The translations under genes and the position numbers were made by a program. From positions 11,940-75,939 of the forward strand of contig JANLIT010000002.1 in NCBI GenBank assembly GCA_024653945.1: 64,000 nucleotides of DNA. The letters run 5' to 3'. This DNA comes from Candidatus Campbellbacteria bacterium. GTDB taxonomy: Bacteria > Patescibacteriota > Minisyncoccia > Phycocordibacterales > EsbW-18. This document shows positions 3,084 through 58,924 of the stretch, one piece after another. Position 1 is the stretch's first letter, and every line of letters starts with the position of its first letter. The notes under the pieces were generated by a model. That model was not told the origin of the DNA. It did no database searches and was given only the letters and a program-made list of their open reading frames with translations.

Positions 3084-3170
3084 CCCTATTTTTGAGAACA
3101 CGAAAACCGCCTGCTGGCGGTTTTCTCTCTCCGACGTCGCCACGCCTACAAAGTTTCTCAAAAATAGGGC
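3084..3170. repeat. palindromic terminator-like element (family also at 21444, 31153, 36855) directly 3' of infC
   Basis: ccctatttttgagaa...aaaaccgcc-tgct-ggcggtttt...ttctcaaaaataggg: outer inverted repeat enclosing a terminator hairpin. Confidence 0.6.
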
Positions 3171-3340
3171 TTCGCTACGTACACGCCGGACCCTGTATGC
3201 AACAGGCTCCGCCTATTAAAAATACAGAAACCACTTGCAAAAAGACAATAAAAATGTACTATGGGTAAGCCCATGTGGGCCTCTTTTTATGAGGACGGGG
3301 CTTCCAACCTCTCACTTCTAACCTCCAACTTCCACTTTAT

Positions 3341-3526
3341 ATGAAGACCAACAAAGCATATTCAAAACGACTTCGCATCACGAAAAACGGTAAGGTTATC
3401 GGCCGAAAAGCTGGTGGCAACCACTACAATGCTAAGGAGTCCCGAAGCACACAACTCGCACGCAAGCGTTCACGAATCATTTCACTTACACCAAAAATCC
3501 GCACGCGTTATTTGCCGTCAAAGTAG
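3341..3526 (+). CDS. rpmI: 50S ribosomal protein L35
   Basis: 61 aa basic protein MKTNKAYSKRLRITKNGKV..RKAGGNHYNAK between infC and rplT (conserved infC-rpmI-rplT order). Confidence 0.85.
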   Translation: MKTNKAYSKRLRITKNGKVIGRKAGGNHYNAKESRSTQLARKRSRIISLTPKIRTRYLPSK

Positions 3527-3574
3527 TTTTCTTATTTCCAACGTCTAACATCTAACTTCCAACTTCCACTTTAT

Positions 3575-3946
3575 ATGACCCGAGTAAAACGAGGAACAAT
3601 TGCACTCAAACGCCGTCGAAATGTGCTCAAACGAGCAAAGGGTTTTCGTAATACACGAAAGAGTAAGGAGAAGCTCGCAAAGGAGTCACTCGTAAAGTCA
3701 GGAATGCACGCATTTGCACACCGCAAAGATAAGAAAAATGATTTCCGTCGATTGTGGCAAACACGCATTTCCGCAGCGGTTGCTCCCCACAACATTTCAT
3801 ACAGCAAATTCATTGGTCTCGTGAATGCAAAAAAGATAACACTGAACCGCAAGATGCTCGCAGAAATCGCGATGACACATCCTCAAACATTTGAACGTAT
3901 CGTCAAACAAGTTCTCGCTCCTCAAACAAAGACAACCGCAAAATAA
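3575..3946 (+). CDS. rplT: 50S ribosomal protein L20
   Basis: MTRVKRGTIALKRRRNVLKRAKGF..RLWQTRISAA..ISYSKFI: L20 signature. Confidence 0.9.
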   Translation: MTRVKRGTIALKRRRNVLKRAKGFRNTRKSKEKLAKESLVKSGMHAFAHRKDKKNDFRRLWQTRISAAVAPHNISYSKFIGLVNAKKITLNRKMLAEIAMTHPQTFERIVKQVLAPQTKTTAK

Positions 3947-3956
3947 TAAAAACACC

Positions 3957-3992
3957 CCCAACATCCTATCGGGGGTATTTTTATGTCCACAA
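3957..3992. terminator. bidirectional intrinsic terminator between rplT (+) and the ABC exporter (-)
   Basis: aaaacaccccc-aacatcctatc-gggggtatttttat: hairpin with T-runs on both strands. Confidence 0.6.
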
Positions 3993-4012
3993 AAAATTAC
4001 TGTGTCTTTACA

Positions 4013-5827
4013 CTATTGATTCTTTTCCATAAAACCACTTACTTGCAAATCCCACAACTTCTTATACAAACCACTATCTTTGTTTGATAACTCATCGTGT
4101 GTTCCATCTTCAACAACTGAACCATTACCCATAACTATAATACGGTCCATTTTTTTCACAGTTGAAAGTCTGTGTGCAATAACAATCGTTGTACAGTCCT
4201 TCATAAGATTTTCTAAAGCACCCTGAATGAGCGACTCTGAGTATGAATCGAGACTTGACGTTGCCTCATCGAAAATAAGTATGGGAGCTTTTTTCAGTAT
4301 TGCTCGTGCGATAGCAACACGTTGACGTTCTCCCCCAGAAAGTTTTATTCCACGTTCACCAACAAACGTTTCATATTTCAAGGGCAAGGTATCAATAAAT
4401 TCATCGCAGTGTGCAAGACATGCGGCTTCCTTAACTTCTTCATCGGTAGCATCTCGACGACCATATCGAATATTTTCAATAAGTGTTCGATGAAAGAGGA
4501 CTGGGTCTTGAGGCACAAAACTGATGTTTTCACGGAGGGATTCCTGCGAAACAAGGCTGATATCTTGACTATCAATGCGTATTGAACCTTTTGTGAGGTT
4601 ATACAGTCGCATGATGAGCCGTACAAGGGTTGTCTTCCCAGCACCAGATGGACCAATAATAGCAACCTTTTCTCCTGGTTTAATGGTGAGGGTGATGTTG
4701 TGTAACACTTTATTATTTTCTCCAAACGCAAATGATATAGAGTCAAACACTATTTCACCTCGTGTCACAACTAACTTTTTTGCGTGTGGTATATTTTTGA
4801 TTTCATGCTTTGTAAGCAAAATATCAACCATCTCTTTTGAATCAGCGATACTTTGATAAATATTTCGAATTATTTTGTTGAGACCCCACAATTGGTTAGC
4901 AACACCAATAATGTACGTCTGTGCCAACACAAACGTACCTATCGTAATAAGACCAAGGCTCCAGTATCGTATCGCAAAGTAAAATACGAAAAATTCAACA
5001 ACAGATATCAGTAAAATTTGTATGGCATCTACAACGTTTCCCAAACGCCAAGAGAAGAGTATTTTTTGGGCCTGATCATTAGAAACTCCTTGGAAACCAA
5101 GTGATTCATGTTTATGGCCGGTGAAAAAAGATATCGCATTGTTGTTTGTTATAGAATCCGCCAAATACCCCGTGGTTCGAGAGTCAGCCTCAGCAACGGC
5201 CGTATCATATTTTAGTTTCCATGTAGAAAACACCACACTAAAGACAACAAATATGACAACCCACACCCCTAAAATAACAGAAATAACAGGAGCCACAGAC
5301 CATGTAATCCATATTGAACCAATAATAGTTATGGTAAGAGGCATCATATTAAAGGCCACGCTGTCAGTGAGAGCCTCAAACGCACGGCTGAAACGACCAA
5401 CCCTTTGAACAAGACTTCCACTAAAATTGTTAGCAAAAAAAGTATATGAATGCTCTATCATATAGGTAAAAGCATTCTGTTTTAAACGCGCCATAACACT
5501 GGACTGCATTTTTGTGAAAAAGTATGTTCCCGCTTGCCAAAAAAGTTGATTTCCTAAATGTAAAAATAAGATAATAAAAATTACTCTATTAAGATCTGAA
5601 ACTACAGAAACGGGGTCTGTGGATTTTCCAAGAATATCAAAAACGTCTTTGTAGTAGAGAGGAACAATAACGTTGACAATCTGAGCACAAAAAAAGAAGA
5701 CGTACGAAAAAACAAACCAGTTTTTCATTGGTCGTACACCATTCCAAAACTGGGTCATTATTTGACTAATGGAAATATTTTGACCTAATCTGCCACTTTC
5801 TTTCATAACCTTCACACTATACAACAA
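4013..5827 (-). CDS. ABC exporter, fused permease-ATPase (MsbA/bacteriocin-exporter type)
   Basis: 604 aa; N-terminal 6-TM domain; C-terminal NBD with Walker A GPSGAGKTT, signature LSGGERQRVAIARAIL, Walker B ILIFDEATSSLD, H-loop IAHRLST. Confidence 0.9.
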   Translation of the reverse strand: MLYSVKVMKESGRLGQNISISQIMTQFWNGVRPMKNWFVFSYVFFFCAQIVNVIVPLYYKDVFDILGKSTDPVSVVSDLNRVIFIILFLHLGNQLFWQAGTYFFTKMQSSVMARLKQNAFTYMIEHSYTFFANNFSGSLVQRVGRFSRAFEALTDSVAFNMMPLTITIIGSIWITWSVAPVISVILGVWVVIFVVFSVVFSTWKLKYDTAVAEADSRTTGYLADSITNNNAISFFTGHKHESLGFQGVSNDQAQKILFSWRLGNVVDAIQILLISVVEFFVFYFAIRYWSLGLITIGTFVLAQTYIIGVANQLWGLNKIIRNIYQSIADSKEMVDILLTKHEIKNIPHAKKLVVTRGEIVFDSISFAFGENNKVLHNITLTIKPGEKVAIIGPSGAGKTTLVRLIMRLYNLTKGSIRIDSQDISLVSQESLRENISFVPQDPVLFHRTLIENIRYGRRDATDEEVKEAACLAHCDEFIDTLPLKYETFVGERGIKLSGGERQRVAIARAILKKAPILIFDEATSSLDSYSESLIQGALENLMKDCTTIVIAHRLSTVKKMDRIIVMGNGSVVEDGTHDELSNKDSGLYKKLWDLQVSGFMEKNQ

Positions 5828-5880
5828 AAATCACGTTGAATCATCTCAAACTAAAGACAGAAACAAGAAAAGTTGCATAA

Positions 5881-5910
5881 TAAAAACCCTCGCTTCTGGC
5901 GAGGGTTTTT
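5881..5910. terminator. bidirectional terminator hairpin
   Basis: aaaaaccctcgc-ttct-ggcgagggttttta. Confidence 0.55.
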
Positions 5911-6370
5911 ATTTCTTGTTGTTCTGATTGATAACAGTAAGCCACTTACCCTTATCTTTTTGACATTTTCGTAGTGAAAGTTTTTCGGAAACCTTCCACA
6001 TACCACCATATATCTTTTTTGCAGTTTTGAGTGAATCTTGCAGGTTCCTTTCATCGCTTACAAAAATGCTTCTTTTACGAGGAAAGAACTGCCAAACCGA
6101 TGGGTCTATTGCATATACTACATTCTTTTCTTGTATCGCTAAAATATCGTGAGATTGCTTGGTGTTACACACCCTATTACCTTTCAACACATGTACAACG
6201 GCCTCCGGAAAGGATTTAAGAACAAAACACCCAGCTAATCGGGATAGTTCACTGCAGTTATCCGTAGCTAAACTAGCCAAAGATTGTCTTGTACCTCCAG
6301 ATTTTCTTAAAACTTTTTTGGCAAAGTTCTGTATCTTATCTATGTTCTTTTTTGTGATGCTGTTTTTCAC
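5909..6370 (-). CDS. hypothetical protein (153 aa, basic)
   Basis: ORF in AT-rich native composition, co-directional and 4-nt overlapping with the upstream gene; no recognisable motif. Confidence 0.45.
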   Translation of the reverse strand: MKNSITKKNIDKIQNFAKKVLRKSGGTRQSLASLATDNCSELSRLAGCFVLKSFPEAVVHVLKGNRVCNTKQSHDILAIQEKNVVYAIDPSVWQFFPRKRSIFVSDERNLQDSLKTAKKIYGGMWKVSEKLSLRKCQKDKGKWLTVINQNNKK

Positions 6371-7059
6371 TGGGTGCTTTTAACATATTCAAACAACCAC
6401 GGAATGTATGTGCCCACATCTGATTTCTCTTTCCATGTTGTTAATGCCTGTTTGAGCATCGGACGATGGTGTGGATAGAAAATCATTTTCTTTACGCCGT
6501 GTATAGATGAAAACGGTTGAGTCGAAAGAATCACTGAGTTGAAGATTTCAGACACATCCCATAAAAAAGGACTTTTATACAGTTTCGGAAAATATTTCTT
6601 CACATAATCAAAAAAGAAAAAATGTAGAATTTCGTGCGCAGTGACAAAACGAACACCATCTTGATGTTTCCAAAAAATTTGAAATGACTTCGTTTCCAAA
6701 AAACGAGGGTTGCAGTCTATTATCGACAGAAAAGCGCGATACCCCTTTCGTGGTGTTGGTTTTTTACCAAACATTTTTTCCACAGTAGTAAAATATATGT
6801 TTTCTGTAACAGACCATTCTTTCTTAAAGATAGAAAGTGTTTTGCGCAATTCTTTATTATGTTTTGTGTAAAAAGTATCCACGTACTTAGAAACCACCTC
6901 TTTTCTTTTTTTAAAAGAAAGCTCTTTCACTTTTTTAAGTTGGGGATGTACAGAAATAATACCTGCACCAAAATCAACCCCACCCTCTTCCGCTGATAAA
7001 AAATCGAGGATAATTTCTTTGTCTAGCTTTTTATTTAATTGAAATGATGTCTTTTTCAT
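6367..7059 (-). CDS. hypothetical protein with HExxH motif (putative Zn-metallopeptidase-like)
   Basis: ..VTAHEILHFFFFD..; ATG at 7059 (the track ORF extends to 7152 on an alternative start); overlaps the P-loop gene by 29 nt. Confidence 0.5.
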   Translation of the reverse strand: MKKTSFQLNKKLDKEIILDFLSAEEGGVDFGAGIISVHPQLKKVKELSFKKRKEVVSKYVDTFYTKHNKELRKTLSIFKKEWSVTENIYFTTVEKMFGKKPTPRKGYRAFLSIIDCNPRFLETKSFQIFWKHQDGVRFVTAHEILHFFFFDYVKKYFPKLYKSPFLWDVSEIFNSVILSTQPFSSIHGVKKMIFYPHHRPMLKQALTTWKEKSDVGTYIPWLFEYVKSTQ

Positions 7060-7510: not shown

Positions 7511-7532
7511 AGCTGAATTATATAAAAGAAAT

Positions 7533-7563
7533 ACGGAGAGAGGAACACTTCCCTCTCTCCGTA
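7533..7563 (-). terminator. intrinsic terminator after the rSAM-peptide pair
   Basis: minus-strand acggagagagg-gaagtgtt-cctctctccgt followed by atttctttt. Confidence 0.6.
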
Positions 7564-7575
7564 TGTAGTGCTGGA

Positions 7576-7698
7576 TCACTTCGTCCGGCACGGGATGTTC
7601 TTGGCCATCTTGCAGCCTGCGCCCGCCTTGGAGTGCTTGGAGCTGCAGGGACGCGGCTCGGAAGCCACAGCAATGCGGGTTCTGCGGTACTTACGCAT
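7576..7698 (-). CDS. 40-aa basic Cys-containing peptide MRKYRRTRIAVASEPRPCSSKHSKAGAGCKMAKNIPCRTK (candidate rSAM substrate/precursor)
   Basis: ATG 6 nt after the rSAM stop codon, SD-like GGGGGTGAAAG upstream, 3 Cys, ~62% GC against a ~40% background, followed by a terminator. Not in the ORF track because it is under 60 aa. Confidence 0.4.
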   Translation of the reverse strand: MRKYRRTRIAVASEPRPCSSKHSKAGAGCKMAKNIPCRTK

Positions 7699-7704
7699 GT
7701 TCTT

Positions 7705-9003
7705 TCACCCCCTTTCGTGTGCGTAGAAGTGGATAACGTCGCACTTATGCCTAGACGGTATCCTGTAGTCACCGCCCTCTACGAGAGCTAGGCCAATGCA
7801 ACTGTCGCAGTAATTCCGATTGCGACAGACCATGCACTGCTGCATCTCTCGAAGAGAGAACTGAGTGAGTACCTGTTTTCGTCGTCGGAGAATCTCGGCC
7901 AATGACTCAGAGGAAGTATCCCCCAACGGTACCCTGAGATCGAGACAAGGATAGACAACGCCCCGTGGGTCAATGGCTATTTGATCCCTACCAGCAAAAC
8001 ACACAGTGTGATTTCGACAGTCGCGATACTTCTTCTGGGTAGGAAAACCGCCGATGCGATCCAGAAAAGGCTTAAACTTCTCTTCCATCTCCTGATACGA
8101 AAGACGGAAAAGCACTTCTTTTCCTGGGCCACTACGGTTCGGTGTAATGTATGGACTGTAGAAAATCGACGCTCCGATTTTCGTTAGAACATCGTGGACC
8201 TCATCGATTCGGTCGATGTTGTGTTTTCCAACCAAAACCGAGAGTGTGACGGGTAGTCCGCACCGAAGCATCTGACGGACGCTCTCCTTGAGTCGATCAA
8301 ATCGATATACCGACCTGGTTAACTCTGAGTACCCAGTCCGTGTTTCATACACCGAAACCTGGATGTCGTACAGGTGAAATCGTGACAACTTTTCGACGGT
8401 ACCCAGAGTGAGAGCCGTTCCGTTCGTTTTTAGTTCCAGAACGAAACCAATCTCCTCAAGATCTTCCATCACAGAGATAGCGTCTCTGCGGAGAAAGAGC
8501 TCTCCTCCTGTAAGAAGAACAAAAACCACTCCCGCCGACTTCAATTCTTGTCCCAACTTCTGAATTCTGTCCCTGGACAAGCCCTTCTCATGGAAGTTGT
8601 CCAAATAGCACCAACTACAACGCTGGTTGCAAAGATACGTCAGCTCGAGATTCGCGTTGATAACCTGCCACTCGCGTATTGCGTAAGCAGACAACTCCTC
8701 TAATGCCGTCTTTTGGGTCCGAATCACTTTTTGTGGGAACCTGTACGCCGACTCATCAGACAAGGAACGAATCACTTCTTTGATTTCAGCAAAATCTGTT
8801 GTAATGTCACCACTATCCTCTGGACGAAATTGCTCCAGAAAATCGTTGGTGAGTTGATGCTGTGGTTCGTTGACAATTCTAACTGCCTGACTTGCAAGAG
8901 GACCCTCGAAAAAAGCTGATTTACGGGTCGTCTTATTAATGATGAATGAAGCGCCCCGAAAATCTCGTGAGATAAGGTTTTTCACGGCCACACCCCTTTT
9001 CAA
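7705..9003 (-). CDS. radical SAM enzyme with C-terminal SPASM-type auxiliary cluster domain and ~100-aa N-terminal extension (possible peptide-recognition domain)
   Basis: CNQRCSWCY (CxxxCxxC) about 120 aa in; C-terminal Cys cluster CFAGRD..YPC..CMVCRNRNYCDSC; GC higher than surroundings. Confidence 0.85.
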   Translation of the reverse strand: MKRGVAVKNLISRDFRGASFIINKTTRKSAFFEGPLASQAVRIVNEPQHQLTNDFLEQFRPEDSGDITTDFAEIKEVIRSLSDESAYRFPQKVIRTQKTALEELSAYAIREWQVINANLELTYLCNQRCSWCYLDNFHEKGLSRDRIQKLGQELKSAGVVFVLLTGGELFLRRDAISVMEDLEEIGFVLELKTNGTALTLGTVEKLSRFHLYDIQVSVYETRTGYSELTRSVYRFDRLKESVRQMLRCGLPVTLSVLVGKHNIDRIDEVHDVLTKIGASIFYSPYITPNRSGPGKEVLFRLSYQEMEEKFKPFLDRIGGFPTQKKYRDCRNHTVCFAGRDQIAIDPRGVVYPCLDLRVPLGDTSSESLAEILRRRKQVLTQFSLREMQQCMVCRNRNYCDSCIGLALVEGGDYRIPSRHKCDVIHFYAHERG

Positions 9004-9111
9004 AGAACTGTAGATGTCGCAGAAGTCTCTATCGTTCTGCTGGTGATAATAAAAGCTGCTACGTATTCTGTCAATACCTCCACAAAATCGACTTTAGAAA
9101 AATTTTATCCT

Positions 9112-9139: not shown

Positions 9140-9142
9140 TGT

Positions 9143-10680
9143 TCACTTTTTAAAATATCCATTCTGTATGCTGTATTCTCTTGTTATCCCAAGGTGGCCA
9201 CATAAGTCTTCGTTGTGAGAAACAATCAGAATTGCACCCTTGAAGTTAGCGAGTGCCTCTGTAAATACAGAGATGGTAGAAATGTCCAAATTGTTAGTTG
9301 GTTCATCAAGAACTACACAATCAAAGTCAGCAATGGTTATCATCGCCAGAGAAAGTCGTGCCAACTCCCCACCGGAGAGTGACCCGGCTTTTTTATTTAC
9401 CTCTGGTGTTTCTCTAAAAAGAAATTGAGCCAAGTGTGTACGCAAAAGTTTGTCATCTGTTGTATGTGTAATACGCTGTATATTTTGAAGTACAGTAAGT
9501 TCTCGGGAAACCAAATCATAGTGCTGGTCTAAATACACCACCTTCAAACTTGGCGTTTTTTTGACTATGCCAACAAGTTTTGCAGGGGAGGTGTCGTCAA
9601 AAAGTGCTCTAAGAAGAAGTGTTTTACCAGACCCATTATCTCCCGTAATCCGTACCCTGTCTCCGGTAAACACATCAAAAGAAATATCCGATACCACTGT
9701 TTTATTTGGAAGAACGAGGTTGGCACCATCAACCGATACTACAAATCTTCTACCTATTTTTTTTGAAGGTACATCAAGCCGTACAATGTGTTTTTTAGAG
9801 AGTATGGCATCCTGCAAATCCTCTTCTTTTTCTTCTTTTGCACTCTTTAGTCTCGTGAGGTTCTTTCCTGATTGTTTCTCCGATTGTTCTTTAAAATATC
9901 CCTTTTCGTACGGCGACATATTGTTGTCCAGTTTCTCTTTTTTTCCAACAGATACAGACCTCTGCTTCTTTGTGTGTTCAACAACAAGTGCCAACTTCGC
10001 TTGTTTCACTATTTTTTTCTTTGCCTCAAACTGGCGCGTGGCAGCGGCGCGTTCGTTCTCAATCAATTGTGCATACGTCGTATAGGTACCTTCCGTGGTT
10101 CTAATTTTTTGATGTTCAATGGTCCAAATTTGGTTAGTTGTTGCATTCAAAAAGTCTATATCGTGTGACACGACGACATACGCACCCACAAAAACTTTTA
10201 GATAGGACTTCAGACGAGCAATTCCAGCAGAATCAAGATGATTGGTTGGTTCATCAAGTAATAGAATACCTGGGGCCAACACTCGAGCAAGAGAAAGATA
10301 TACTTTGATGTATTCCCCACCAGATAAGTTACTCATTTTTGAGTCGAAGGGTACTGTTTTTTTGAAAGGGTCAAAAACTCTTTCTCAAAAAGATGTTTTG
10401 AAACCGAGTGTTTGGATAAGAGAGTGGCAAGAGTGGCTTCTTTATCTGCATCTCTTTTTTGAGGAACAATAAATACTTTTCCATTCACTGTGCAAGAACC
10501 TGTGTCTGGCGCAATATCCCCATGTATCATTTTGAGCAATGTCGTTTTTCCTGTTCCGTTATCACCAATAAGACCAACACAATCTCCTGAAAACAGGGTG
10601 AGGTGCGAAATATGCCACAAAAGCTGATCTCTTATTGAGTAGGATGCGTCTTGTATGAGAATAAGAGGGTTCCTGTTCAT
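9143..10680 (-). pseudogene. ABC-F family ATPase (two NBDs, EttA/Uup-like), interrupted by a frameshift in a homopolymer
   Basis: Track ORFs 10333..10680 (Walker A GLIGDNGTGKTT) and 9143..10336 (starts MSNLSGGEY: signature, Walker B LLLDEPTNHLD, then a second NBD with GDNGSGKT, LSGGELARL, VVLDEPTNNLD) meet at a 7-T run (+ strand 10357-10363). Eight would restore one 500+-aa ABC-F reading frame. Confidence 0.7.
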
Positions 10681-10701
10681 ACCCCCATACTACACCGTAC
10701 C

Positions 10702-21014: not shown

Positions 21015-21443
21015 TTACAAACGAAAACTTCGACCTATGGGGGGCCGAAGTACTCGTGTGGGGGCTATCTCAGATGAGTTACCTAGCATGTGCTAGGTGG
21101 GTGTCCTAAGTACATACACCGGAGCGTATGGTTTGAAACAAAATCAGACTCCCTGTAACAATTAATTTGATCTAGATAATATCCAAAATAACCCCTACAC
21201 CAATCCTACTCCCTATCAAAGAACACTGACAAGGGGGATAATGCTTTGCACGACACTACACAAAAAAGTGAAGTATGTGTGTCAAAAAATCCGCCATGCA
21301 GACGGATTTTTTGTTTTGTCTGTTTCAAATAATTGACAGAAATTTTCTTTTTATTTGAGATGTGTATTTTTCTATCGTGTTTATGTCTTTTGAATTTAAA
21401 ATAGAACTTTTGTCTTACAAAAGTTCGTGTACGGAGCAAGCTT

Positions 21444-21525
21444 CTATTTTTGAAAGACTTTGAAGGCACGGCGGTGCCGGAGAGAGAAAACCGCCTGCTG
21501 GCGGTTTTCGTGCTTTCAAAAATAG
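21444..21525. repeat. palindromic terminator element (same family as 3084, 31153, 36855) directly 3' of ndk
   Basis: ctatttttgaaagactttgaaggcacggcggtgccggagagagaaaaccgcctgctggcggttttcgtgctttcaaaaatag. Confidence 0.65.
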
Positions 21526-21539: not shown

Positions 21540-22124
21540 CTAATTGTCAATTCCAAATCGTTTATATGAGTAAATTGGGCTTGTTCCAAACCAGTAGTCT
21601 ATCTCGTGCTTCGCTTCTTCGGGTGTTTCTGACGCATGCACCAGGTTCATAATTGCTCGTTTCTCGGCATTTGCCAGTACCGGAGAGTCAACGGAAAAAT
21701 CACCACGAATGGTGCCCATTTCTGCAAGGTACGGGAGAGTTGGACCGACAATTTTGCGCACCATGTCAACAGCATGCACACCTTCAACCACCATTCGTAC
21801 CGATGGTCCCATAATAAGGTATTCAATGAGCCACCCCCTCACCTTCTGGCCTATTTCCATGGTGTCTTTAGTTCCCATCTCCTCAATTGCGTCAATACCA
21901 TACTTCTCATATGTGCCCATGGTCTTTTCTCCAAGGCGGTTAATCCATTTTGTATCCTTAGGATAGTGGTCGTTCACACGGTCTTCTGTCGCCTGAAACA
22001 TCTCAAGAGCAACGATCTTCAAATCCCGTTGTTCAAAACGCTGAATAATCTCTCCCACAAGCCCCTTTCGGACTCCGTCGGGCTTTACCATCACAAATGT
22101 TTTCTCTTCTCTGGGGTTTCGCAT
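21540..22124 (-). CDS. ndk: nucleoside-diphosphate kinase-like protein, with insertions
   Basis: FVMVKPDGV..GLVGEII.RFE..G..IVALEM...NLVHASE (NDK active-site His context, NIIHGSD-like); 194 aa, longer than canonical. Confidence 0.7.
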   Translation of the reverse strand: MRNPREEKTFVMVKPDGVRKGLVGEIIQRFEQRDLKIVALEMFQATEDRVNDHYPKDTKWINRLGEKTMGTYEKYGIDAIEEMGTKDTMEIGQKVRGWLIEYLIMGPSVRMVVEGVHAVDMVRKIVGPTLPYLAEMGTIRGDFSVDSPVLANAEKRAIMNLVHASETPEEAKHEIDYWFGTSPIYSYKRFGIDN

Positions 22125-29304: not shown

Positions 29305-29312
29305 CGTTATTT

Positions 29313-29906: not shown

Positions 29907-30107
29907 TAACCCAAATAGAAACGGTTAGTGCTGGGCGAGCCTAAGCGAGGTTTAACCTCGCTAACCTCGGAAGTGCTTGTGACTTATAGTTACGACCGTA
30001 GCCATAAGTCACATTGAAATTGTGTCCGTAAGGTCGAACCTTACGTTTCTGAGGTAAATAAAAGAGCCGCCCGAGAGCGAGCGGCTCGTTGGGCGGCGGG
30101 TGGATAC

Positions 30108-30503
30108 CTACAGGATCGATTCCTCCTGAAAGGTGGGGATGTCCATACTCATGTTGTGCAACTCCTCGGCACCCCATGTTTGTGATTCTGTGTCGGTGTG
30201 GTGCGGACCACGGTCCTTGTGCCGAATAGCCCGTACAACGACCCACTGCTCGTCCTTAAAGTGCCACCGCGGATCCTTCTGTTTCGTGAACCACATTCCG
30301 ACTTCTCCGCCAGGAATCTTGAAGGAAACGACGACAAACTGTCTTCCTTCAGATTCCTCTTCTGTGGAGGTCATCGCCAGCACAACTGGCAACACGATGC
30401 GCCATTCGAAGACGCGATCCTGGTTGATGATCGCAGTAAGCACCATCAGGCCAAGCCGTTCCGGCACCGAGAACTGTGTTTCTTTTCCACGAATCTGCAC
30501 CAT
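30108..30503 (-). CDS. island hypothetical protein (131 aa)
   Basis: SD AAAGGAGAAG 8 nt before the ATG; terminator hairpin with T-run just downstream. Confidence 0.4.
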   Translation of the reverse strand: MVQIRGKETQFSVPERLGLMVLTAIINQDRVFEWRIVLPVVLAMTSTEEESEGRQFVVVSFKIPGGEVGMWFTKQKDPRWHFKDEQWVVVRAIRHKDRGPHHTDTESQTWGAEELHNMSMDIPTFQEESIL

Positions 30504-30746
30504 GGCGCTTCTCCTTTCCGGAGTAGACCGACAGGATTGTCGGCAGGCCTTTCCGGCCGTTTGGTACTGCTACCCGAACACTCGTCGGGGTTAATCTGGC
30601 AACACACTATGCTTATCTGCAAAGAAAGTCAAACCAAACGTCCCGCTTTCTCGGTCCTGTTGTGTTGGACACTGAGTGTCCAACACTCGGATACTGGAAA
30701 CAAAAGAGCCGCCCGAGAGCAAACGGCTCTTTGGACAGCCCAGACC

Positions 30747-31007
30747 CTACTTGGAAAGGATGGCAACTCCGATTATCAACTTCCGAGTAGCACCCCTATC
30801 TCGCAGAGTCCTCGATTTCTTGATCTTCTTCAAACTAAGGATTGCGTGGTGTTGCTTGCCCTCCTCATCTTGGACACTCAAATGCAGAGTTCCCATACCG
30901 CCCTCGAAAAGCCAGTTGGCAAGAGCAGAAGAAACAACCTCCTGCCCACCCAAAAGCGTTCCCGCGATACCAATGTTGCTCTGTGCGGTTACTTTTGGAT
31001 ATAGCAT
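30747..31007 (-). CDS. island hypothetical protein (~86 aa from the internal ATG MLYPKV..)
   Basis: SD AAAAAGGAGAAGG before the ATG at 31007; terminator hairpin downstream. Confidence 0.4.
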   Translation of the reverse strand: MLYPKVTAQSNIGIAGTLLGGQEVVSSALANWLFEGGMGTLHLSVQDEEGKQHHAILSLKKIKKSRTLRDRGATRKLIIGVAILSK

Positions 31008-31152
31008 TTCCTTCTCCTTTTTCCAAGGTCTATAGTTAAACAAATTCTGATAGGACAATACGCTTCTAGATAAGCAAAGTCAAACCAAACGTCCTTGTAT
31101 TTAAAGTCCCGCCCAGACATTGTCTGGGCGGGGCGTCGTACGAAGCGAGTCT

Positions 31153-31230
31153 CTATTTTTGAAAGACTTTGTAGGCACGGCGGTGCCGGAAAGAGAAAAC
31201 CGCCACCGGGCGGTTTTCGTGCTTTCAAAA
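31153..31230. repeat. palindromic terminator element directly 3' of secY
   Basis: ctatttttgaaagactttgtaggcacggcggtgccggaaagagaaaaccgccaccgggcggttttcgtgctttcaaaaata. Confidence 0.65.
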
Positions 31231-31249
31231 ATATGAGACGAGTGAAGAG

Positions 31250-32533
31250 CTAGTATTCACGTAATGACACTTGCGCGTCAATCTTTTTCACCAAATCAAT
31301 AATAACCGAGACGGCGATGAGGAGCCCTGTACCACCAACTGCAAGAGAGGTAATGCCAGTCAAACCTTGCATAATGAGAGGCAAAATAGCGATAACACCC
31401 AGAAATGAAGCGCCGAGAAGGGTTAACCGAGTGAGAATGTTTGCAATGTGTTCGGATGTTGATTGACCTGGGCGAACACCGGGAATAAACGCACCGCCCC
31501 GCTGAAGATTCTTTGAAATGGCATCTGGATCAAAGGTAACCGCGGTGTAAAAATACGTAAACAAAAACACAAGAAGGAAGTACGCGACACCGTACGACCA
31601 CCCATTATTCAAAAACCACTGCACGCCAGCAACCATCTTCTGCACGATTGGATTAGCAACTCCCGCAAGAAAGTTTGCAATCATACCTGGAAACAAGAGG
31701 ATGGAAAGCGCAAAAATGATTGGCATCACACCCGCTTGGTTCACGCGAAGTGGTAGGTATGTTGACACACCTCCGTATACTTTGTTGCCACGAATTTGTT
31801 TTGCGTAGGTAACAGGAATTGGTCGTTCTGCCTCTGTTACAATCACAACACCAATAACAATGATGAGTCCAACAACCAGAAAGGCGAGGTACATTGGCAA
31901 CTGTTCGGGTGTGAATGAAAATACGGTTGTTTGTAATGCGCTTGGAATACGTGACACAATACCTGCAAAGATGATGAGTGACATTCCGTTACCAATGCCA
32001 AATTCAGAAATAAGTTCACCAACCCACATGAGGAGTACCGAGCCCGCAACAATCACGATAATGTTGGTGATGAGTGACAAAGATGAGAGATCACCTATAA
32101 CCCCGTTTCGTTGGAGTAGTGTAATAAATCCAAATGCAGAGAGGGCGGCAAGTGGAACAGTGAGCAACCTAGAGTATTGTGCAATACGACGTCGTCCCGC
32201 CTCCCCTTCTTCATGAAACATCGCCTTGAGTTGTGGTGAAAGAATGGTGAGCAACTGCATGATGATTGAACCAGTGATGTATGGACCAACTCCGAGCATC
32301 ACAATTGAAAGACCTGAAAGTCCTCCTCCTGAAAAAAGGTTGAGAAGACCGAAAAATTGATTGTTTGCAAAAAACTGAGAAAGCGCATTAATATCAACAC
32401 CTGGAATTGGAATTGCGGCAAACACGCGCGTCAGTGCGAGTCCTGCAATAACAAAAAGAATGCGAGTTCGCAATTGGCGATCCCCCATAATAATGGAAAA
32501 TTTTTGTACAAAGTTTTTCATCATACGTAACAA
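31250..32533 (-). CDS. secY: preprotein translocase subunit SecY
   Basis: 10-TM SecY; likely true start is the MMKNF ATG near 32524. Confidence 0.9.
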   Translation of the reverse strand: MLRMMKNFVQKFSIIMGDRQLRTRILFVIAGLALTRVFAAIPIPGVDINALSQFFANNQFFGLLNLFSGGGLSGLSIVMLGVGPYITGSIIMQLLTILSPQLKAMFHEEGEAGRRRIAQYSRLLTVPLAALSAFGFITLLQRNGVIGDLSSLSLITNIIVIVAGSVLLMWVGELISEFGIGNGMSLIIFAGIVSRIPSALQTTVFSFTPEQLPMYLAFLVVGLIIVIGVVIVTEAERPIPVTYAKQIRGNKVYGGVSTYLPLRVNQAGVMPIIFALSILLFPGMIANFLAGVANPIVQKMVAGVQWFLNNGWSYGVAYFLLVFLFTYFYTAVTFDPDAISKNLQRGGAFIPGVRPGQSTSEHIANILTRLTLLGASFLGVIAILPLIMQGLTGITSLAVGGTGLLIAVSVIIDLVKKIDAQVSLREY

Positions 32534-32539
32534 TGTGCG

Positions 32540-32989: not shown

Positions 32990-32994
32990 AGTTG

Positions 32995-33078
32995 TGTAAA
33001 TCCGAAATTCGAATATCGAAATCCGAAAGAATATTTAATTTGTTTCGTGCTTCGTGCTTCGTGCTTCGTGCTTTGGTT
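32995..33078. repeat. r-protein leader repeat (short variant) upstream of rplO
   Basis: aaatccgaaattcgaatatcgaaatccgaaag..(ttcgtgc)x4. Confidence 0.55.
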
Positions 33079-33733
33079 TTTGTACGTTGTGCGTCTTAAT
33101 TTTCTTCGTGAGTTGTGAGAGTGCTTTAATTGTTGCGGTTGCGTTGTTGAGTTTGTTCTTACTACGAGAAAGAATCTTTGCACCAACACCACGAACTCCT
33201 GCGAGTTCAAGCACATCACGTACTGCACCTCCAGCAATAATACCGCGTCCTGGTGCTGGATAAAGCTTTACAATACCACTACTGTACTTCACTTGTACTT
33301 CGTGTGGAATTGAGCCGTCTTCAGTTTGTGAAATAACAATTTTATTTTTGAGTGCGCTTCGGTATGCCTTCTCTACTGCAAGTGCTGTGTCGCCCGCCTT
33401 ACCTGTGCCTACACCAACGGCACCACGGTGGTTTCCCGCAACAACACACACGCTGAAGCTAAAACGACGTCCTCCAGCAACCACACGAGTCACACGGCGA
33501 ATATCAATGATGCGCTGATCAAATTCAGGTTTAATACGGGGTGCGCGTCCGCGAGGAGTGCGACGAGAATTTTTCTGCATACGTCGGTCTTCACGTGATG
33601 CATTTACTGGCGCACTTCCTTTTGGAGCCACTACAACAACGTCTGCCTCAATGTCGGCAGCAAGTGTGTCCTCCACAACAGCGACCTCTGTTGTTTCAAT
33701 CTCGTTTTCTTTTGTACGAATATCGTCGGGCAT
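33035..33733 (-). CDS. rpsE: 30S ribosomal protein S5, with ~70-aa N-terminal extension
   Basis: core ..VTRVVAGGRRFSFSVCVVAGNHRGAVGVGTGKA..; no L30 gene between this and rplO. Confidence 0.9.
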   Translation of the reverse strand: MPDDIRTKENEIETTEVAVVEDTLAADIEADVVVVAPKGSAPVNASREDRRMQKNSRRTPRGRAPRIKPEFDQRIIDIRRVTRVVAGGRRFSFSVCVVAGNHRGAVGVGTGKAGDTALAVEKAYRSALKNKIVISQTEDGSIPHEVQVKYSSGIVKLYPAPGRGIIAGGAVRDVLELAGVRGVGAKILSRSKNKLNNATATIKALSQLTKKIKTHNVQKPKHEARSTKHETN

Positions 33734-33804
33734 AAATAATGGAAGTTGGAGGTTTGAGGTTAGAGGTTGGATGAGTTAGTGATTAGTTTTAGTTTGGTTA
33801 TTTG

Positions 33805-33824
33805 CCTGCCTGCCGGCAGGCAGG
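33805..33824. repeat. perfect 20-bp GC palindrome CCTGCCTGCCGGCAGGCAGG in the rpsE leader
   Basis: identical copy at 41223-41242. Confidence 0.6.
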
Positions 33825-33864
33825 AAATTTGATATTTGATATTGTTTCGTGTTTTGTACTTTTT

Positions 33865-34212
33865 TTAGAACTTTAATCCTCCTTTACGTGCACCATCTGC
33901 AACTTCTTTAATGACACCCGTGTATGCAAATCCTCCTCGATCAAATACTACAGCTGTAATCTTTTTTGTAAGTGATGTCTTTGCAACAATTTCTCCGAGT
34001 TCAAATGCTTTTTCTTTTGCAGTTCCCTTCTTCATTCCCTTTGTCGTACCGGCAACAAGCGTCATTCCTTTTGTATCATCAATAACTTGAAGCGTTGTGA
34101 ATCGATTTGATTTAAACACAGCCAAACGTGGGCGTACTGATGTACCAGAAATCTTCGCGCGGATACGTCCTTGTCGTCGAACTCGTTTTTCTTTTTTTGT
34201 TGGGGCTTTCAT
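33865..34212 (-). CDS. rplR: 50S ribosomal protein L18
   Basis: ..RPRLAVFKSNRFTTLQVIDD.. Confidence 0.9.
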   Translation of the reverse strand: MKAPTKKEKRVRRQGRIRAKISGTSVRPRLAVFKSNRFTTLQVIDDTKGMTLVAGTTKGMKKGTAKEKAFELGEIVAKTSLTKKITAVVFDRGGFAYTGVIKEVADGARKGGLKF

Positions 34213-34300
34213 ATAAAGTTGAAGTTGGAAGTTTGAGGTTGGGAGTTGGTTTTTGTTTTCTTTGTTATTTGCTATTTGTCATTTGCTATTTCCCCTTACT

Positions 34301-34834
34301 CTACGCTGCTCGTTTTCCTTCCTTACGACGAACCACTTCGTCAGAGTATCGGATTCCCTTTCCTTTGTATGGTTCTGGCACTTTTTGGGAACGAATTGTT
34401 GCAGCAAATTGTCCGAGAAGTTCTTTGTCTATAGAAGAAAGGGAGAGTGTGTTTTTCTCAATAGTGAGCGTAAGACCTTCAGGAATTGGGAGAACAACAG
34501 GATGTGAAAAACCAAGTTGCATGACCAAATCTTTTCCTTTCACTTCTGCGCGGTACCCAACTCCTTCAACAATAAGTTTTTTCTCGTAGAGTTTGTTGAC
34601 ACCCGCAACCATGTTCTTGATGTGTGATGCGTATGTTCCCCACAATGCTGACCACATTTCTGGATGCTCCTTTGGAGCAAGTGTCACCACGCCATCTGCA
34701 ACAGAAATGGAAATGTCGCTCTTGAACGTTCGGTGTAATTCACCAAGTGGTCCTTTTACGACAACGCTACCGTCAACAACAGTAATTTCTGTTTTTGGGG
34801 GAATTGTAATGTGTTGTTTGCCGATGCGGGACAT
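34301..34834 (-). CDS. rplF: 50S ribosomal protein L6
   Basis: MSRIGKQHITIP..V.V.GPLGEL. Confidence 0.9.
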   Translation of the reverse strand: MSRIGKQHITIPPKTEITVVDGSVVVKGPLGELHRTFKSDISISVADGVVTLAPKEHPEMWSALWGTYASHIKNMVAGVNKLYEKKLIVEGVGYRAEVKGKDLVMQLGFSHPVVLPIPEGLTLTIEKNTLSLSSIDKELLGQFAATIRSQKVPEPYKGKGIRYSDEVVRRKEGKRAA

Positions 34835-34835
34835 A

Positions 34836-34970
34836 CTATTTTTAAATTCGAAATACGAATATCGAAATTCGAAACAAATTCGAAGTTATAGATTTTAAAG
34901 TTTTAAGCATTTGAATATTCATATTTTGTGCTTGTTTCGAGCTTCGTGCTTCGATATTCGTGCTTATCTT
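34836..34970. repeat. ~130-bp r-protein leader repeat upstream of rplF
   Basis: tttttaaattcgaaatacgaatatcgaaattcgaaacaa...catttgaatattcatattttgtgcttgtttcgagcttcgtgcttcgatattcgtgcttat. Confidence 0.65.
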
Positions 34971-35363
34971 CTACCAGATCATAAAAAGCACTTCTCCTCC
35001 AACCTTCGCCTTTCGAGCTTGCTGACCAGTCATAACGCCTTCTGGTGTTGAAAGAATGAGGTGTCCATAGCCGTTCTTCACTGGGTACACTTCTGTTGAG
35101 CCAATGTAGACACGACGAGAGGGTTTTGAAAGACGTTTTACTCCGTGAATGAGTGCGTCACCGTTTTCATCAAATGCGAGCGTTGCTTCAATTTTGTTTG
35201 TTTTCTTTCCTTTGTGGTCAACGTTTGCAAGGTATCCTTCTTTTTTGAGAACAACTGCAACAGCGTCTTTAAGACGTGAGTGCGGAACAGAGACGGTCTC
35301 AACACCAACACGTGCTGCGTTTTGAAGAGCTGTTATGAAGTTTGCGAGTGGGTCGGTGGTCAT
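34971..35363 (-). CDS. rpsH: 30S ribosomal protein S8
   Basis: MTTDPLANFITALQNA..; C-terminal ..GGEVLFMIW. Confidence 0.9.
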   Translation of the reverse strand: MTTDPLANFITALQNAARVGVETVSVPHSRLKDAVAVVLKKEGYLANVDHKGKKTNKIEATLAFDENGDALIHGVKRLSKPSRRVYIGSTEVYPVKNGYGHLILSTPEGVMTGQQARKAKVGGEVLFMIW

Positions 35364-35414
35364 GGTAGTAAGTAGTATGTAGAAAGTAGTAGGTAGAAAG
35401 TAGTAAGCAAAAAA

Positions 35415-35684
35415 TTACCAAGATGCCTTCTTAATACCTGGAATCATTCCTTTATTTGCAAGTTCGCGGAAACAAATACGACAGAGACCGAATTCGCGCA
35501 TGTATCCTCGTGGGCGACCACATTTAAAACAACGGTTTTTTGTTCGAACTGGAGATGCGTTCTTGCGCAATGCCTGAAGACCCTCGTAATCGTGGGCCTC
35601 TTTCAATGCAGTTCGCTTTGGAGCGGATTTTGCCTGCATCACTGCTCTTTTTTTGTCTCGTGCAATAATTGCTTTTCGGGCCAT
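35415..35684 (-). CDS. rpsN: 30S ribosomal protein S14 (zinc-ribbon type, CxxC..CxxC)
   Basis: [13 protein letters not shown]...[38 protein letters not shown]; ATG at 35684 (track ORF starts at 35726). Confidence 0.85.
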
Positions 35685-35912
35685 ATACTTTTTTCCAAAA
35701 AAAATTCTGCCTCTCGATGTGTCCATGGACCAATTCGGACGAATTGGCCGGCTGACAGATAACGAGGCGGTGGTCTCCTCCGGCGCCTATTGGCTCTGAG
35801 AGGACAAGCTCCCTATTTAGAAGCCCCACCATACTACCAGAAGTCTCCAAAAAGGGCAAGAAAAAGAGAAGCCCCGCTAGCACAAAGTGCGCCGGCGGGG
35901 CGGAAAGAACAA

Positions 35913-36761
35913 CTACTTTGACCAGGATTGTCTGCCCTTTGCCGAAGCAATTCGGCACCACAACAGGGATTGGGCTATGAGCCGATTTCGATGCCGTCGC
36001 TCTTCCTCATCACGAAGGTCTCTTGGTGTCTTGTGCTTACCACCACCGAGGAGAGCCCCAACGGCAAGGCTGTTTATCAACCACTGTTCCTTGTATTTCC
36101 CGAACAATTCATCCGACACAAATTCAAGGTAGTGGAGAATCTGAGACGCTTGATCTCGTTCAGAAATCTTCCTGCTCTTTTCCTTTTCGGATGGTAGCCG
36201 AGTTCCACCGGTAAACGTGAGCATATCGGCAGAACCCCAAAGCGCAAGTGCTCGAACCAGTGGCCCTGATTCCTGATAGTGGAAGTGCCACGGGCGCCCG
36301 TTCGTCCTAGGACCCACTAGAAGCATGGATATCGCTTCTCTCCAGGTGTGAAATTCCTTGCAGAGAAACTGCTGGATTCGAGACGGGTACGGAGGACGTA
36401 GCAGACATTCGTGCACAACCCCAAAGAACGAAATGAGGTCATTACGAAGAATGGCCGACCCTTCTTCCTTTTCGTCTCGAGAAAGCAGGTAGGTCTTGCC
36501 CAAAACCTCATCTGAAGCGATGACTCTGCGTGCTGTGTCCGCGACCCTGCCCTCTTCACCAACTTCGCGAAACACATTGAGCAGAAAGCGGGCCTTGTCT
36601 TTGAACAACTGACGCCCTTCCTCATCCCCTTCGATGGGCGGGTCATTCCAAAGACTGCCACAGGCGTAGAGCAGGCCTATGGCCTCCGCTTCCGTACTGA
36701 CCCTCTGCCAGCACTCCTCGAACTGCTCCCACGTACTAATGACCAACAACTCTTTTTTCAC
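35913..36761 (-). CDS. GC-rich (~58%) 282-aa hypothetical protein inserted between rplE and rpsN
   Basis: GTG start with SD AAAGGAGATCCACC; composition step relative to the flanking r-protein genes. Confidence 0.5.
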   Translation of the reverse strand: MKKELLVISTWEQFEECWQRVSTEAEAIGLLYACGSLWNDPPIEGDEEGRQLFKDKARFLLNVFREVGEEGRVADTARRVIASDEVLGKTYLLSRDEKEEGSAILRNDLISFFGVVHECLLRPPYPSRIQQFLCKEFHTWREAISMLLVGPRTNGRPWHFHYQESGPLVRALALWGSADMLTFTGGTRLPSEKEKSRKISERDQASQILHYLEFVSDELFGKYKEQWLINSLAVGALLGGGKHKTPRDLRDEEERRHRNRLIAQSLLWCRIASAKGRQSWSK

Positions 36762-36854
36762 GGTGGATCTCCTTTCTATAGTGTCGCTCGATGTTTGAGC
36801 GACGGGTCGATCCGCCGTTTATTCTCCACACACAGACACACAAGTCAAGCTACG

Positions 36855-36897
36855 AAGAAAACCGCCTGCTGGCGGTTTTCGTGCTTCTACAAAATAT
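36855..36897. repeat. partial palindromic terminator element directly 3' of rplE
   Basis: gaaaaccgcctgctggcggttttcgtgcttctacaaaatatgag; shares the ttcgtgctt..aaaatatgagacgag tail with 31200-31240. Confidence 0.55.
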
Positions 36898-58923: not shown

Positions 58924-58924
58924 C

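What the first reader, a model, noticed from the sequence alone, without database searches (positions are those of the whole stretch)
3084..36897. Palindromic ~80-90-bp terminator elements (MITE/REP-like) immediately 3' of infC, ndk, secY and rplE
Four copies (3084-3170, 21444-21525, 31153-31230, 36855-36897) share an outer inverted repeat ctatttttgaaag/ctttcaaaaatag enclosing GGCACGGCGGTGCC and AAAACCGCC-nnnn-GGCGGTTTT hairpins. Two of them also share a tail ttcgtgctt..aaaatatgagacgag that abuts the stop codons of secY and rplE. Three of the four border GC-rich inserted DNA. They are plausible bidirectional terminators, and may also be the footprints or integration targets of the cassettes.
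Basis: seen in the sequence. Interest (0 to 1): 0.55.

Follow-up and report, generated by a model that had tools for sequence, protein, structure and literature searches.

The report
Structured terminator-like repeats after stop codons
A small-genome bacterium (Candidatus Campbellbacteria) carries a repeated, about 115-base folded DNA/RNA element that starts right at the stop codon of core genes. It most likely ends and insulates transcription at the places where extra genes have been inserted into otherwise conserved operons, and it matches no catalogued RNA family.

Summary
The repeat is real and far beyond chance: the 22-nt hairpin occurs 4 times against 0.00 expected. The window comes from a Candidatus Campbellbacteria (Patescibacteria) genome.

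- The unit is about 115 nt and begins at the base after the stop codon.
- Copy 1 is inverted on the + strand, so all copies have the same orientation relative to the upstream gene.
- Copy 4 is a recurrent short form.
- Two more full copies exist, after rpsJ and at 51.6 kb.
- Only two of the four copies border inserted DNA.

All copies fold into a three-way junction: a long outer stem P1, a CAC(G)-tagged hairpin P2 and a small hairpin P3. Related copies occur in five relatives and in a Taylorbacteria genome. Their stem sequences are unrelated but still pair: 94.7% of cells pair, and 22 of 23 pairs show double changes. Rfam 15 has no match.

In the four reported copies P2 is a canonical bidirectional intrinsic terminator. 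The variant subfamily lacks a U tract. Relatives without the element have plain hairpin terminators at the same sites.

My best reading is a structured terminator/insulator module. The tests for MITE, REP and attC membership failed. How it spreads is unknown.

The parts
3071..3185 (+). Copy c1 (A subfamily, full length). It follows the infC stop codon (3068-3070) directly and lies upstream of the rpmI/rplT promoter. P2 terminator hairpin at 3100-3127.
   Evidence: MFE -42.6 kcal/mol, z -6.9; CM 86 bits
21425..21539 (-). Copy c2 (A subfamily, full length). It follows the ndk stop codon (21540-22142 gene end at 21540-21542) directly. A further hairpin follows at 21404-21426. The ancestral terminator shared with L027 is retained at about 21289-21320.
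   Evidence: -51 kcal/mol, z -8.7; 86.7 bits
31135..31249 (-). Copy c3 (A subfamily, full length). It follows the secY stop codon (31250-31252) directly and is followed by two inserted promoter-bearing cassettes.
   Evidence: z -6.65; 86.1 bits. The cassettes are absent in L022.
36849..36912 (-). Copy c4, short form: left flank, degenerate left arm, CAC bulge and P2 hairpin, joined directly to a cassette promoter (CTTCGTAGCTTGACT). It follows the rplE stop codon (36913-36915) directly.
   Evidence: 20.6 bits. The same short form occurs in L027 after secY and in L036 after rplB.
47662..47780 (-). Copy b1 (B subfamily). It has the same flanks and fold as the A copies, its own P1, and a P2 without a U tract. 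It follows the rpsJ (S10) stop codon (47781-47783) directly and faces a convergent small inserted gene (47211-47510 +).
   Evidence: z -6.7; 78 bits
51558..51678 (+). Copy b2 (B subfamily). It does not follow an ORF. It lies between the MscS-like gene (50705-51403 -) and the gene at 51820-52494 (+). Copies at the same position in L033, L034 and L035 have unrelated but paired stems.
   Evidence: z -7.8; 77.9 bits
41682..41745 (-). Remnant: b2-like P1 arms (CCCCGCCC ... GGGCGGGG) plus the right flank TTCACTCCGTACGTTAAAT, with the core lost. It follows the inserted gene 41758-42150. Its right flank is orthologous to that of the L022 copy after rplB.
53346..53437 (+). Weak, degenerate B-like candidate (CACGCGTCGTTTTCTATTGAAAACGCG...). 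Membership uncertain.
   Evidence: (21.1 bits, E 0.007)
29941..31134 (-). Two tandem inserted cassettes between secY and adk: ORFs 30747-31004 and 30108-30503. Each has its own promoter, a GGAGA Shine-Dalgarno sequence and a terminator.
   Evidence: Absent in L022, L025, L029 and L031. The second cassette is shared with L023.
35905..36848 (-). Inserted cassette between rplE and the ancestral rplE terminator: promoter, Shine-Dalgarno sequence and a 282-aa orphan ORF (35913-36761).
   Evidence: L022 and L029 have only the ancestral terminator at this site.

Best explanation
The four copies belong to a family of structured, palindromic 3'-end modules of Paceibacteria.

**Anatomy, read in the direction of the upstream gene.** The order is: stop codon, then a C/U-rich flank (CUCUCCGCUC), the long outer stem P1, an unpaired CAC(G), hairpin P2 (9-11 bp, loop usually UGCU), CUCNCUC, the small hairpin P3, the P1 return strand, and a second flank (CUCGCUCCGUAC). 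A further hairpin often follows.

**How it most likely works.** In the A subfamily (the reported copies) P2 is a canonical bidirectional intrinsic terminator. The module most likely ends transcription of the upstream core gene and shields it from whatever follows. That may be a gene with its own promoter, a convergent gene or an inserted cassette. The larger three-way fold probably acts as a stable 3'-end structure or as a backstop for read-through transcripts.

**Shown here:** the repeat, its position and orientation, the fold, the covariation, and the terminator-like anatomy of P2 in the A subfamily.

**Inferred:** that termination, insulation or stabilisation actually happens, and that the RNA rather than the DNA is the active form.
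For: **Position.**
- Five of six window copies start at the base after a stop codon, in sense orientation.
- Three Taylorbacteria copies also lie just 3' of ORFs in sense orientation.

**Terminator anatomy.** P2 of the A subfamily has a stem of -17 kcal/mol (sense) and -21.7 kcal/mol (antisense), flanked by an A tract and a U tract.

**Orthologous sites.** Relatives without the element carry simple hairpin terminators at the same sites after secY, rplE, ndk, rpsJ and rplB.

**What follows each copy.** Every copy is followed by a promoter-like site, a convergent gene or a cassette.

**Fold.**
- Each of the 10 sequences folded singly has a z-score between -5.7 and -8.7, and 9 of them give the same three-way junction.
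- A MAFFT alignment of 9 copies gives 20 of 23 pairs with compensatory changes.
- In 14 copies, 94.7% of cells pair against 63.5% in shuffles and at most 57% with slid partners. 22 of 23 pairs show double changes.

**Base-pair types.** G.U pairs are almost absent: 5 of 472 pairs. This fits a structure that must fold on both strands.
Against: - The B subfamily and the L023 copies have no U tract after P2. A separate terminator hairpin follows some of them (L023 secY copy, b2), so the feature conserved across the whole family is not a canonical terminator.
- At ndk and rplE the ancestral terminator is still present downstream. The element is therefore not strictly needed to terminate there.
- If P2 terminates efficiently, the P1 return strand is not transcribed. 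RNA-level selection on P1 is then hard to explain.
- Copy b2 and its three orthologues do not follow a gene.
- No expression data were available.
Confidence: 0.5

Rival explanations
1. It is a non-autonomous mobile DNA element (MITE/REP-like) that inserts between a stop codon and the native terminator. Any terminator activity is a side effect.
For: - Near-identical copies (91%) lie at unrelated loci.
- Presence at orthologous sites among close relatives is patchy.
- At ndk and rplE the ancestral terminator persists downstream, as expected for an insertion.
- The left end abuts the stop codon exactly at five loci.
Against: - The inverted repeat P1 is the least conserved part. Copies b1 and b2 share about 93% of their core but have unrelated P1 arms.
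- No copy-specific target-site duplication was found: same-copy flank match 6.9 of 9 against 6.3 of 9 between copies.
- No transposase, RAYT or integrase was found among the roughly 60 window ORFs scanned.
- Junction nucleotides are conserved across Campbellbacteria and Taylorbacteria while the stems covary, which points to structural selection.
- No clean empty site was found.
Confidence: 0.2
2. It is a structured RNA with its own sequence-specific function, for example a protein-binding 3' module or, at the 51.6-kb locus, the 3' domain of a small RNA. The terminator in the A subfamily is a secondary acquisition.
For: - CAC(G), the UGCU loop and CUCNCUC are conserved while all three helices covary.
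- The b2 locus is conserved in four genomes with about 90%-conserved flanks and no upstream ORF.
- The CAC is kept as a bulge even in the short form.
- No Rfam family matches.
Against: - G.U pairs are nearly absent from 472 sense-strand pairs, and the antisense strand always folds better. This is not the usual signature of a single-strand RNA constraint.
- No partner protein or ligand is suggested by the gene context, which is heterogeneous.
Confidence: 0.2
3. It is a recombination site, functionally like an integron attC, at which promoter-bearing gene cassettes are captured right after stop codons.
For: - Full or short-form copies sit at the 5' edge of cassettes in the window (c3, c4), L023 (after secY and rplE) and L027 (after secY).
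- In L022 and L036 (after rplB) and at b1 the element faces a convergent small inserted gene.
- Relatives lacking these cassettes lack the element at the same sites.
- It is a long imperfect palindrome with bulges mostly on one arm.
Against: - Copies c1, c2 and b2 have no cassette.
- Cassettes in L029, L031 and L033 begin after plain terminators.
- There are no R''/R' core sites, no cassette array with repeated sites, and no integrase in the window.
Confidence: 0.06

Closest known systems
Bidirectional intrinsic (Rho-independent) terminators
   Same: P2 of the A subfamily is a GC-rich 10-bp stem with a 4-nt loop, an A tract 5' and a U tract 3'. It lies right after stop codons and between convergent or independently transcribed units.
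   Different: The hairpin is nested in a conserved three-way junction of about 115 nt with conserved flanks. The B subfamily keeps the fold but has no U tract.
REP/BIME elements (GTAG- and CGTC-tagged palindromes; Di Nocera et al. 2013, PMC3733652)
   Same: Both are repeated extragenic palindromes with an unpaired tag at the foot of an 8-11-bp stem and a 4-5-nt loop. Both lie mostly downstream of coding regions and have proposed terminator or mRNA-stabilising roles.
   Different: The tag is CAC(G), not GTAG or CGTC. The hairpin is embedded in a larger branched palindrome. Stem sequence varies within one genome. No RAYT gene was seen. Genome-wide copy number is unknown.
MITE-type intergenic repeats that act as terminators or RNase III sites (Correia/NEMIS of Neisseria, ERIC of enterobacteria) (from my own knowledge)
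   Same: They are about 100-150-nt imperfect palindromes, transcribed with neighbouring genes, found at operon boundaries and present in multiple copies.
   Different: Those families have conserved terminal inverted repeats and a target-site duplication (TA for Correia). Here the inverted repeat is hypervariable and no target-site duplication was detected. There is no sequence similarity to plasmid or phage collections.
Integron attC sites (from my own knowledge)
   Same: In both, structure is conserved while sequence is variable. Both are imperfect palindromes of 60-140 nt at gene-cassette boundaries, with bulged bases on one arm.
   Different: There are no RYYYAAC/GTTRRRY core sites. The conserved nucleotides lie in the inner junctions rather than at the base. 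The cassettes carry their own promoters. There is no array and no intI nearby.
Phage 'morons' (for the cassettes, not the element) (from my own knowledge)
   Same: The inserted genes are autonomous units (promoter, gene, terminator) of deviant GC content, placed between conserved neighbours.
   Different: They lie in a cellular ribosomal-protein operon of a Patescibacterium, not in a phage genome.

Membership tests
Intrinsic terminator | GC-rich hairpin (5-14 bp, loop 3-8) immediately followed by a U-rich tract, located 3' of a gene | tested here: met
   Met for the A subfamily (c1-c4): a 10-bp stem of -17 kcal/mol, then UUUUCUCUCU in sense and UUUUCGUGCUUU in antisense, starting 29-33 nt after the stop codon.
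Intrinsic terminator | The same feature in all members of the family | tested here: not met
   P2 of the B subfamily (b1, b2) and of the L023, L033, L034 and L035 copies has no U tract (-11.5 kcal/mol, followed by CUCACUCUC).
REP (GTAG/CGTC-tagged) | Unpaired GTAG or CGTC tag at one end of a 20-40-bp palindrome | tested here: not met
   The tag is CAC(G) in 14 of 14 aligned copies. Definition taken from PMC3733652.
REP (GTAG/CGTC-tagged) | High copy number and an associated RAYT transposase | not testable with these tools
   Only 64 kb of the source genome was available. No RAYT/Y1 transposase was found among the window ORFs scanned.
MITE | Terminal inverted repeats conserved among copies | tested here: not met
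   P1 is shared by c1-c3 only. The P1 arms of b1, b2, L022, L023, L033, L034 and L035 are unrelated, while cores and flanks are conserved.
MITE | Copy-specific target-site duplication | tested here: not met
   Same-copy flank match 6.9 of 9 against 6.3 of 9 between copies. The flanks are a shared family motif.
Integron attC | R''(RYYYAAC)/R'(GTTRRRY) core sites at the base of the palindrome | tested here: not met
   The P1 bases read GCCC/GGGC, GCTTC/GAAGC, GTCTC/GAGAC and so on. GTTAAAT occurs beyond the right flank in only three loci.
Integron attC | Array of cassettes each ending in a site, next to intI/attI | tested here: not met
   The sites are single and scattered. The two tandem cassettes at 29.9-31.1 kb share one element. 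No integrase is encoded in the window.
Any Rfam 15 family | Covariance-model match at gathering score or at a significant E-value | tested here: not met
   No hit overlaps any copy at gathering score or at E<=5 over the whole window, nor at E<=1 on short stretches.

The most novel reading that the evidence does not exclude
The three-way-junction element is an undescribed class of structured nucleic-acid site in Patescibacteria. It defines, and perhaps mediates, the insertion of promoter-bearing orphan-gene cassettes exactly at the stop codons of core genes (rpsJ, rplB, rplE, secY). This would be a cassette-capture system without a known integrase. Alternatively, it is a new protein-binding 3'-end RNA module shared by mRNAs and a small RNA.
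Probability: 0.12. Interest if true: 0.8.

Novelty: new variant of a known kind. Interest (0 to 1): 0.5.

Why it matters
Almost nothing is known about how Patescibacteria, with their tiny genomes and no cultures for most lineages, punctuate transcription or take up new genes.

- **A motif ready to test.** This element has strong covariation support and a working covariance model. It marks the break points of the most conserved operon in bacteria.
- **A use for annotation.** It could delimit transcription units in these genomes and separate inserted orphan genes from core genes.
- **A question for evolution.** Terminator-like structures are replaced at fixed sites between close relatives, and this family offers a way to study how.
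- **If it proves to be a recombination or protein-binding site,** it would point to a new mechanism of gene-cassette turnover in a major, poorly understood branch of bacteria.

Tried and rejected
- **Public collections.** The genome-contig scan with the hairpin plus CGTG gave 21 scattered hits, many in Proteobacteria. The hairpin alone is therefore generic. Two metagenome scans and two viral scans with A and B core patterns gave nothing. BLASTN against plasmids and phages gave nothing.
- **Source genome.** It is not in the exact-protein index, so no genome-wide copy count was possible.
- **Cassette protein.** A homologue search with the 131-aa cassette protein returned only itself.
- **Cassette ORFs.** Pfam gave no domains for them, apart from a TrmB-like helix-turn-helix in 42280-43062.
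- **Consensus terminator scan.** It was uninformative: 24 sites found against 21.3 expected. It misses P2 because the A and U tracts pair.
- **Target-site duplication.** Rejected by the permutation-style comparison.
- **RNA strand from G.U versus A.C counts.** Inconclusive: 11 G.U against 7 A.C in the model-fitted alignment. In single-sequence folds the antisense strand is always more stable, which may only reflect its G-richness.
- **Rejected on sequence inspection alone:** hammerhead or other self-cleaving ribozyme cores (no CUGANGA/GAAA), parS (only an ACACGTGT core in b1 and b2), a dif/Xer site (TATGTTAAAT in three right flanks only), a boxA-like CGCUC motif, and a composite Rho rut site. 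For the rut idea, part of the C-rich J2/3 segment is in fact paired in P3.
- **Literature.** Four searches found no description of such an element in Patescibacteria.
Full report
**Source and genes.**
SecY and EF-Tu encoded in the window are 100% identical to proteins of a Candidatus Campbellbacteria MAG (Patescibacteria) on a 238,534-bp contig.

The hairpin AAAACCGCC-N4-GGCGGTTTT occurs exactly four times, at the stated places, against 0.00 expected. Copies 2 and 3 are 91% identical over 96 nt.

Several details are wrong or incomplete.
- GGCACGGCGGTGCC occurs only in copies 2 and 3.
- The outer repeat is exact only in copy 2. Copy 3 has one mismatch in its right arm, copy 1 has the compensated variant GAGAA/TTCTC, and copy 4 lacks the right arm.
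- Copy 1 is the reverse complement of copies 2-3 on the + strand. Because infC is on + and the other three genes are on -, all copies have one and the same orientation relative to the upstream gene.
- In that orientation the conserved unit is about 115 nt and starts at the first base after the stop codon: TAA|CTCTCCGCTC ... CTCGCTCCGTAC.

None of the other 61 genes listed has this post-stop sequence.

**More copies in the window.**
Searching the flank motifs, nhmmer and a covariance model revealed a variant 'B' subfamily.
- b1, 47662-47780(-), starts right after the rpsJ stop codon.
- b2 lies at 51558-51678(+).
- A remnant lies at 41682-41745(-), and a weak candidate at 53346-53437(+).

B copies share the flanks, the CACG, the CUCACUCUC segment and the overall fold with A copies. 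Their stems differ, and there is no U tract after hairpin P2.

**The fold.**
Nine of the ten sequences folded singly give the same three-way junction. The tenth, L018 with its P3 insertion, gives another minimum-energy fold. The junction has these parts:
- a long outer stem P1 (10-22 bp);
- an unpaired CAC(G);
- hairpin P2 (9-11 bp, loop mostly UGCU);
- a CUCNCUC segment that is partly paired in an extended P3;
- the return strand of P1.

Z-scores run from -5.7 to -8.7 for all ten.

A MAFFT alignment of 9 copies gives an RNAalifold consensus in which 20 of 23 pairs have compensatory double changes. On 14 copies aligned to the model:
- 94.7% of cells pair, against 63.5% in shuffles and at most 57% with slid partners;
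- 22 of 23 pairs show double changes;
- 0 of 500 shuffles reach the observed score.

This second alignment is fitted to the model, so it leans towards the structure. The MAFFT-based result is independent of that.

**Relatives.**

| Locus | Relative | Element found |
|---|---|---|
| L022 | SecY 95% identical | Full copy right after rplB, with a different but paired P1 |
| L023 | SecY 80% | Copies after secY and after rplE. In the secY copy, P1 pairs with the last secY codons |
| L033, L034, L035 | EF-Tu 96%, 97%, 90% | One copy each at the position of b2. In L033 and L034 the flanks are about 90% conserved and P1, P2 and P3 differ entirely yet pair |
| L027, L036 | one JGI sample | Short form like copy 4 (left flank, CAC bulge, P2, then CTTCGT), after secY and after rplB |
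| L007, L018 | Taylorbacteria MAG | Four copies of the same architecture. The three in L007 lie just 3' of ORFs in sense orientation |

Rfam 15 has no matching family at any threshold tried.

**Relation to inserted DNA.**
Comparison with L022, L025, L029 and L031 shows real insertions in the window.
- The secY-adk gap holds two tandem cassettes.
- The rplE-rpsN gap holds one.
- Each cassette has its own promoter, a GGAGA ribosome-binding site, an orphan GC-rich ORF and a terminator.
- The rplB-rpsS and rpsJ-rplC gaps are also insertion hot spots.

The element sits at the 5' edge of such inserts in the window (c3, c4), L023 and L027. At b1, L022 and L036 it faces a convergent small inserted gene. 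The link is not obligatory, however.
- Copies c1, c2 and b2 have no cassette.
- Cassettes in L029, L031 and L033 begin after ordinary hairpin terminators.
- At ndk and rplE the ancestral terminator, shared with relatives, is still present downstream of the element.

**What it most likely does.**
In the A subfamily, P2 is a textbook bidirectional intrinsic terminator: -17 kcal/mol in sense and -21.7 kcal/mol in antisense, with A and U tracts on either side. Three observations fit a terminator/insulator role.
- Orthologous sites in relatives carry plain terminators.
- Every copy is followed by an independently transcribed or convergent unit.
- G.U pairs are nearly absent (5 of 472), as expected for a structure that must fold on both strands.

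I therefore read the family as a structured terminator/insulator and 3'-end module. My confidence is about 0.5.

Four points weaken this reading.
- B copies lack a U tract.
- The ancestral terminators are retained at two sites.
- Conservation of P1 is hard to explain if P2 terminates efficiently.
- The b2 locus has no upstream ORF.

These points leave room for a specific RNA function or for a DNA-level role.

**Mobility.**
Near-identical copies at unrelated loci and patchy presence among relatives show that the element spreads or is exchanged. The classical signatures of a mobile element are missing.
- The inverted repeat is the least conserved part.
- The flanking direct repeats are a family motif, not copy-specific duplications.
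- No transposase or integrase is encoded among the window ORFs scanned.
- No similar DNA exists in the plasmid, phage, viral or JGI metagenome collections searched.

**Comparison with known elements.**
The element resembles REP/BIME elements (definition from PMC3733652), Correia/ERIC-type repeats and attC sites. The shared traits are that it is repeated, palindromic and intergenic, lies at gene 3' ends, and is conserved in structure. It fails each membership test that could be run: the tag, conserved terminal repeats, target-site duplication, core sites, and an associated enzyme. I therefore class it as a new variant of a known kind, not as a member of any named family.

**Limits.**
Only 64 kb of the source genome and about 250 kb of relatives could be searched. 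There is no expression data.

Noticed in passing
window 34838-34968, 37481-37611, 37824-37954, 39445-39575, 43945-44075, 44536-44666, 54148-54278 (- strand): A second repeat family of about 130 nt fills the gaps between ribosomal-protein genes. It begins TAAGCACGAA at or near the stop codon and ends AAAAAATATG at the next start. Its two arms are made of 7-nt-periodic units and fold into a long hairpin with G.U pairs. Relative L022 has tightly packed genes without it.
   Followed up: partly
window, e.g. 3302-3344, 3536-3578, 33731-33776, 35361-35404, 54972-55045, 62195-62296: G-poor leaders with 7-nt periodicity (CCAACTT..., ACTACTT...) lie directly upstream of many start codons, without a Shine-Dalgarno sequence. 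The inserted cassette genes do have GGAGA.
   Followed up: no
window about 21015-21230 (- strand), between ndk and the DUF2238 gene: A block of about 200 nt is roughly 90% conserved in relatives L027, L025 and L031, although the surrounding intergenic DNA is not. It is a candidate non-coding RNA with no Rfam match.
   Followed up: partly
window 35727-35870 (- strand), upstream of rpsN: A leader of about 130 nt is almost identical in L022 and L029. It is a candidate ribosomal-protein leader or regulatory RNA.
   Followed up: no
window 30504-30610 (- strand); L023:11440-11548: The 5' UTR of the cassette gene 30108-30503 is conserved with that of the L023 cassette gene, including hairpins that cover the Shine-Dalgarno sequence. 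The word-based homologue search with the window protein did not return the L023 protein. It is a candidate cis-regulatory RNA.
   Followed up: partly
window 51404-51557 (+): The 150 nt upstream of copy b2 are about 90% conserved in L033 and L034 and contain no convincing ORF. Together with the element they may form a small-RNA gene.
   Followed up: partly
window 387-760 (-) and 872-1321 (-): A tmRNA gene scores 79 bits against a gathering score of 47. It was found only in the E-value mode of the Rfam search and was missed by ARAGORN and by the gathering mode. It lies next to smpB, and its terminator at 299-321 is a compensated variant of the P2 hairpin (AAAACCACC...GGTGGTTTT).
   Followed up: partly
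window 7568-7693 (-), 7705-9003 (-), 9143-10680 (-): A radical-SAM/SPASM enzyme gene is followed by a 41-aa Cys-rich basic ORF and by ABC-transporter genes. This looks like a RiPP-type peptide-maturation cluster.
   Followed up: no
window 31055-31083 and about 30610-30640 (-); 30064-30087 and about 30710-30735 (-); L023:11925-11965; L027:5100-5135: Inserted cassettes reuse the same promoter module (GGTTTGACTTT...TATTGT) and the same terminator module (GAGCCGYTYGCTCTCGGGCGGCTCTTTT) across different orphan genes and genomes.
   Followed up: partly
window 58870-58925 (-): A tandem GTAGCTT heptamer repeat lies directly after the stop codon of the 814-aa gene (58925-61369).
   Followed up: no
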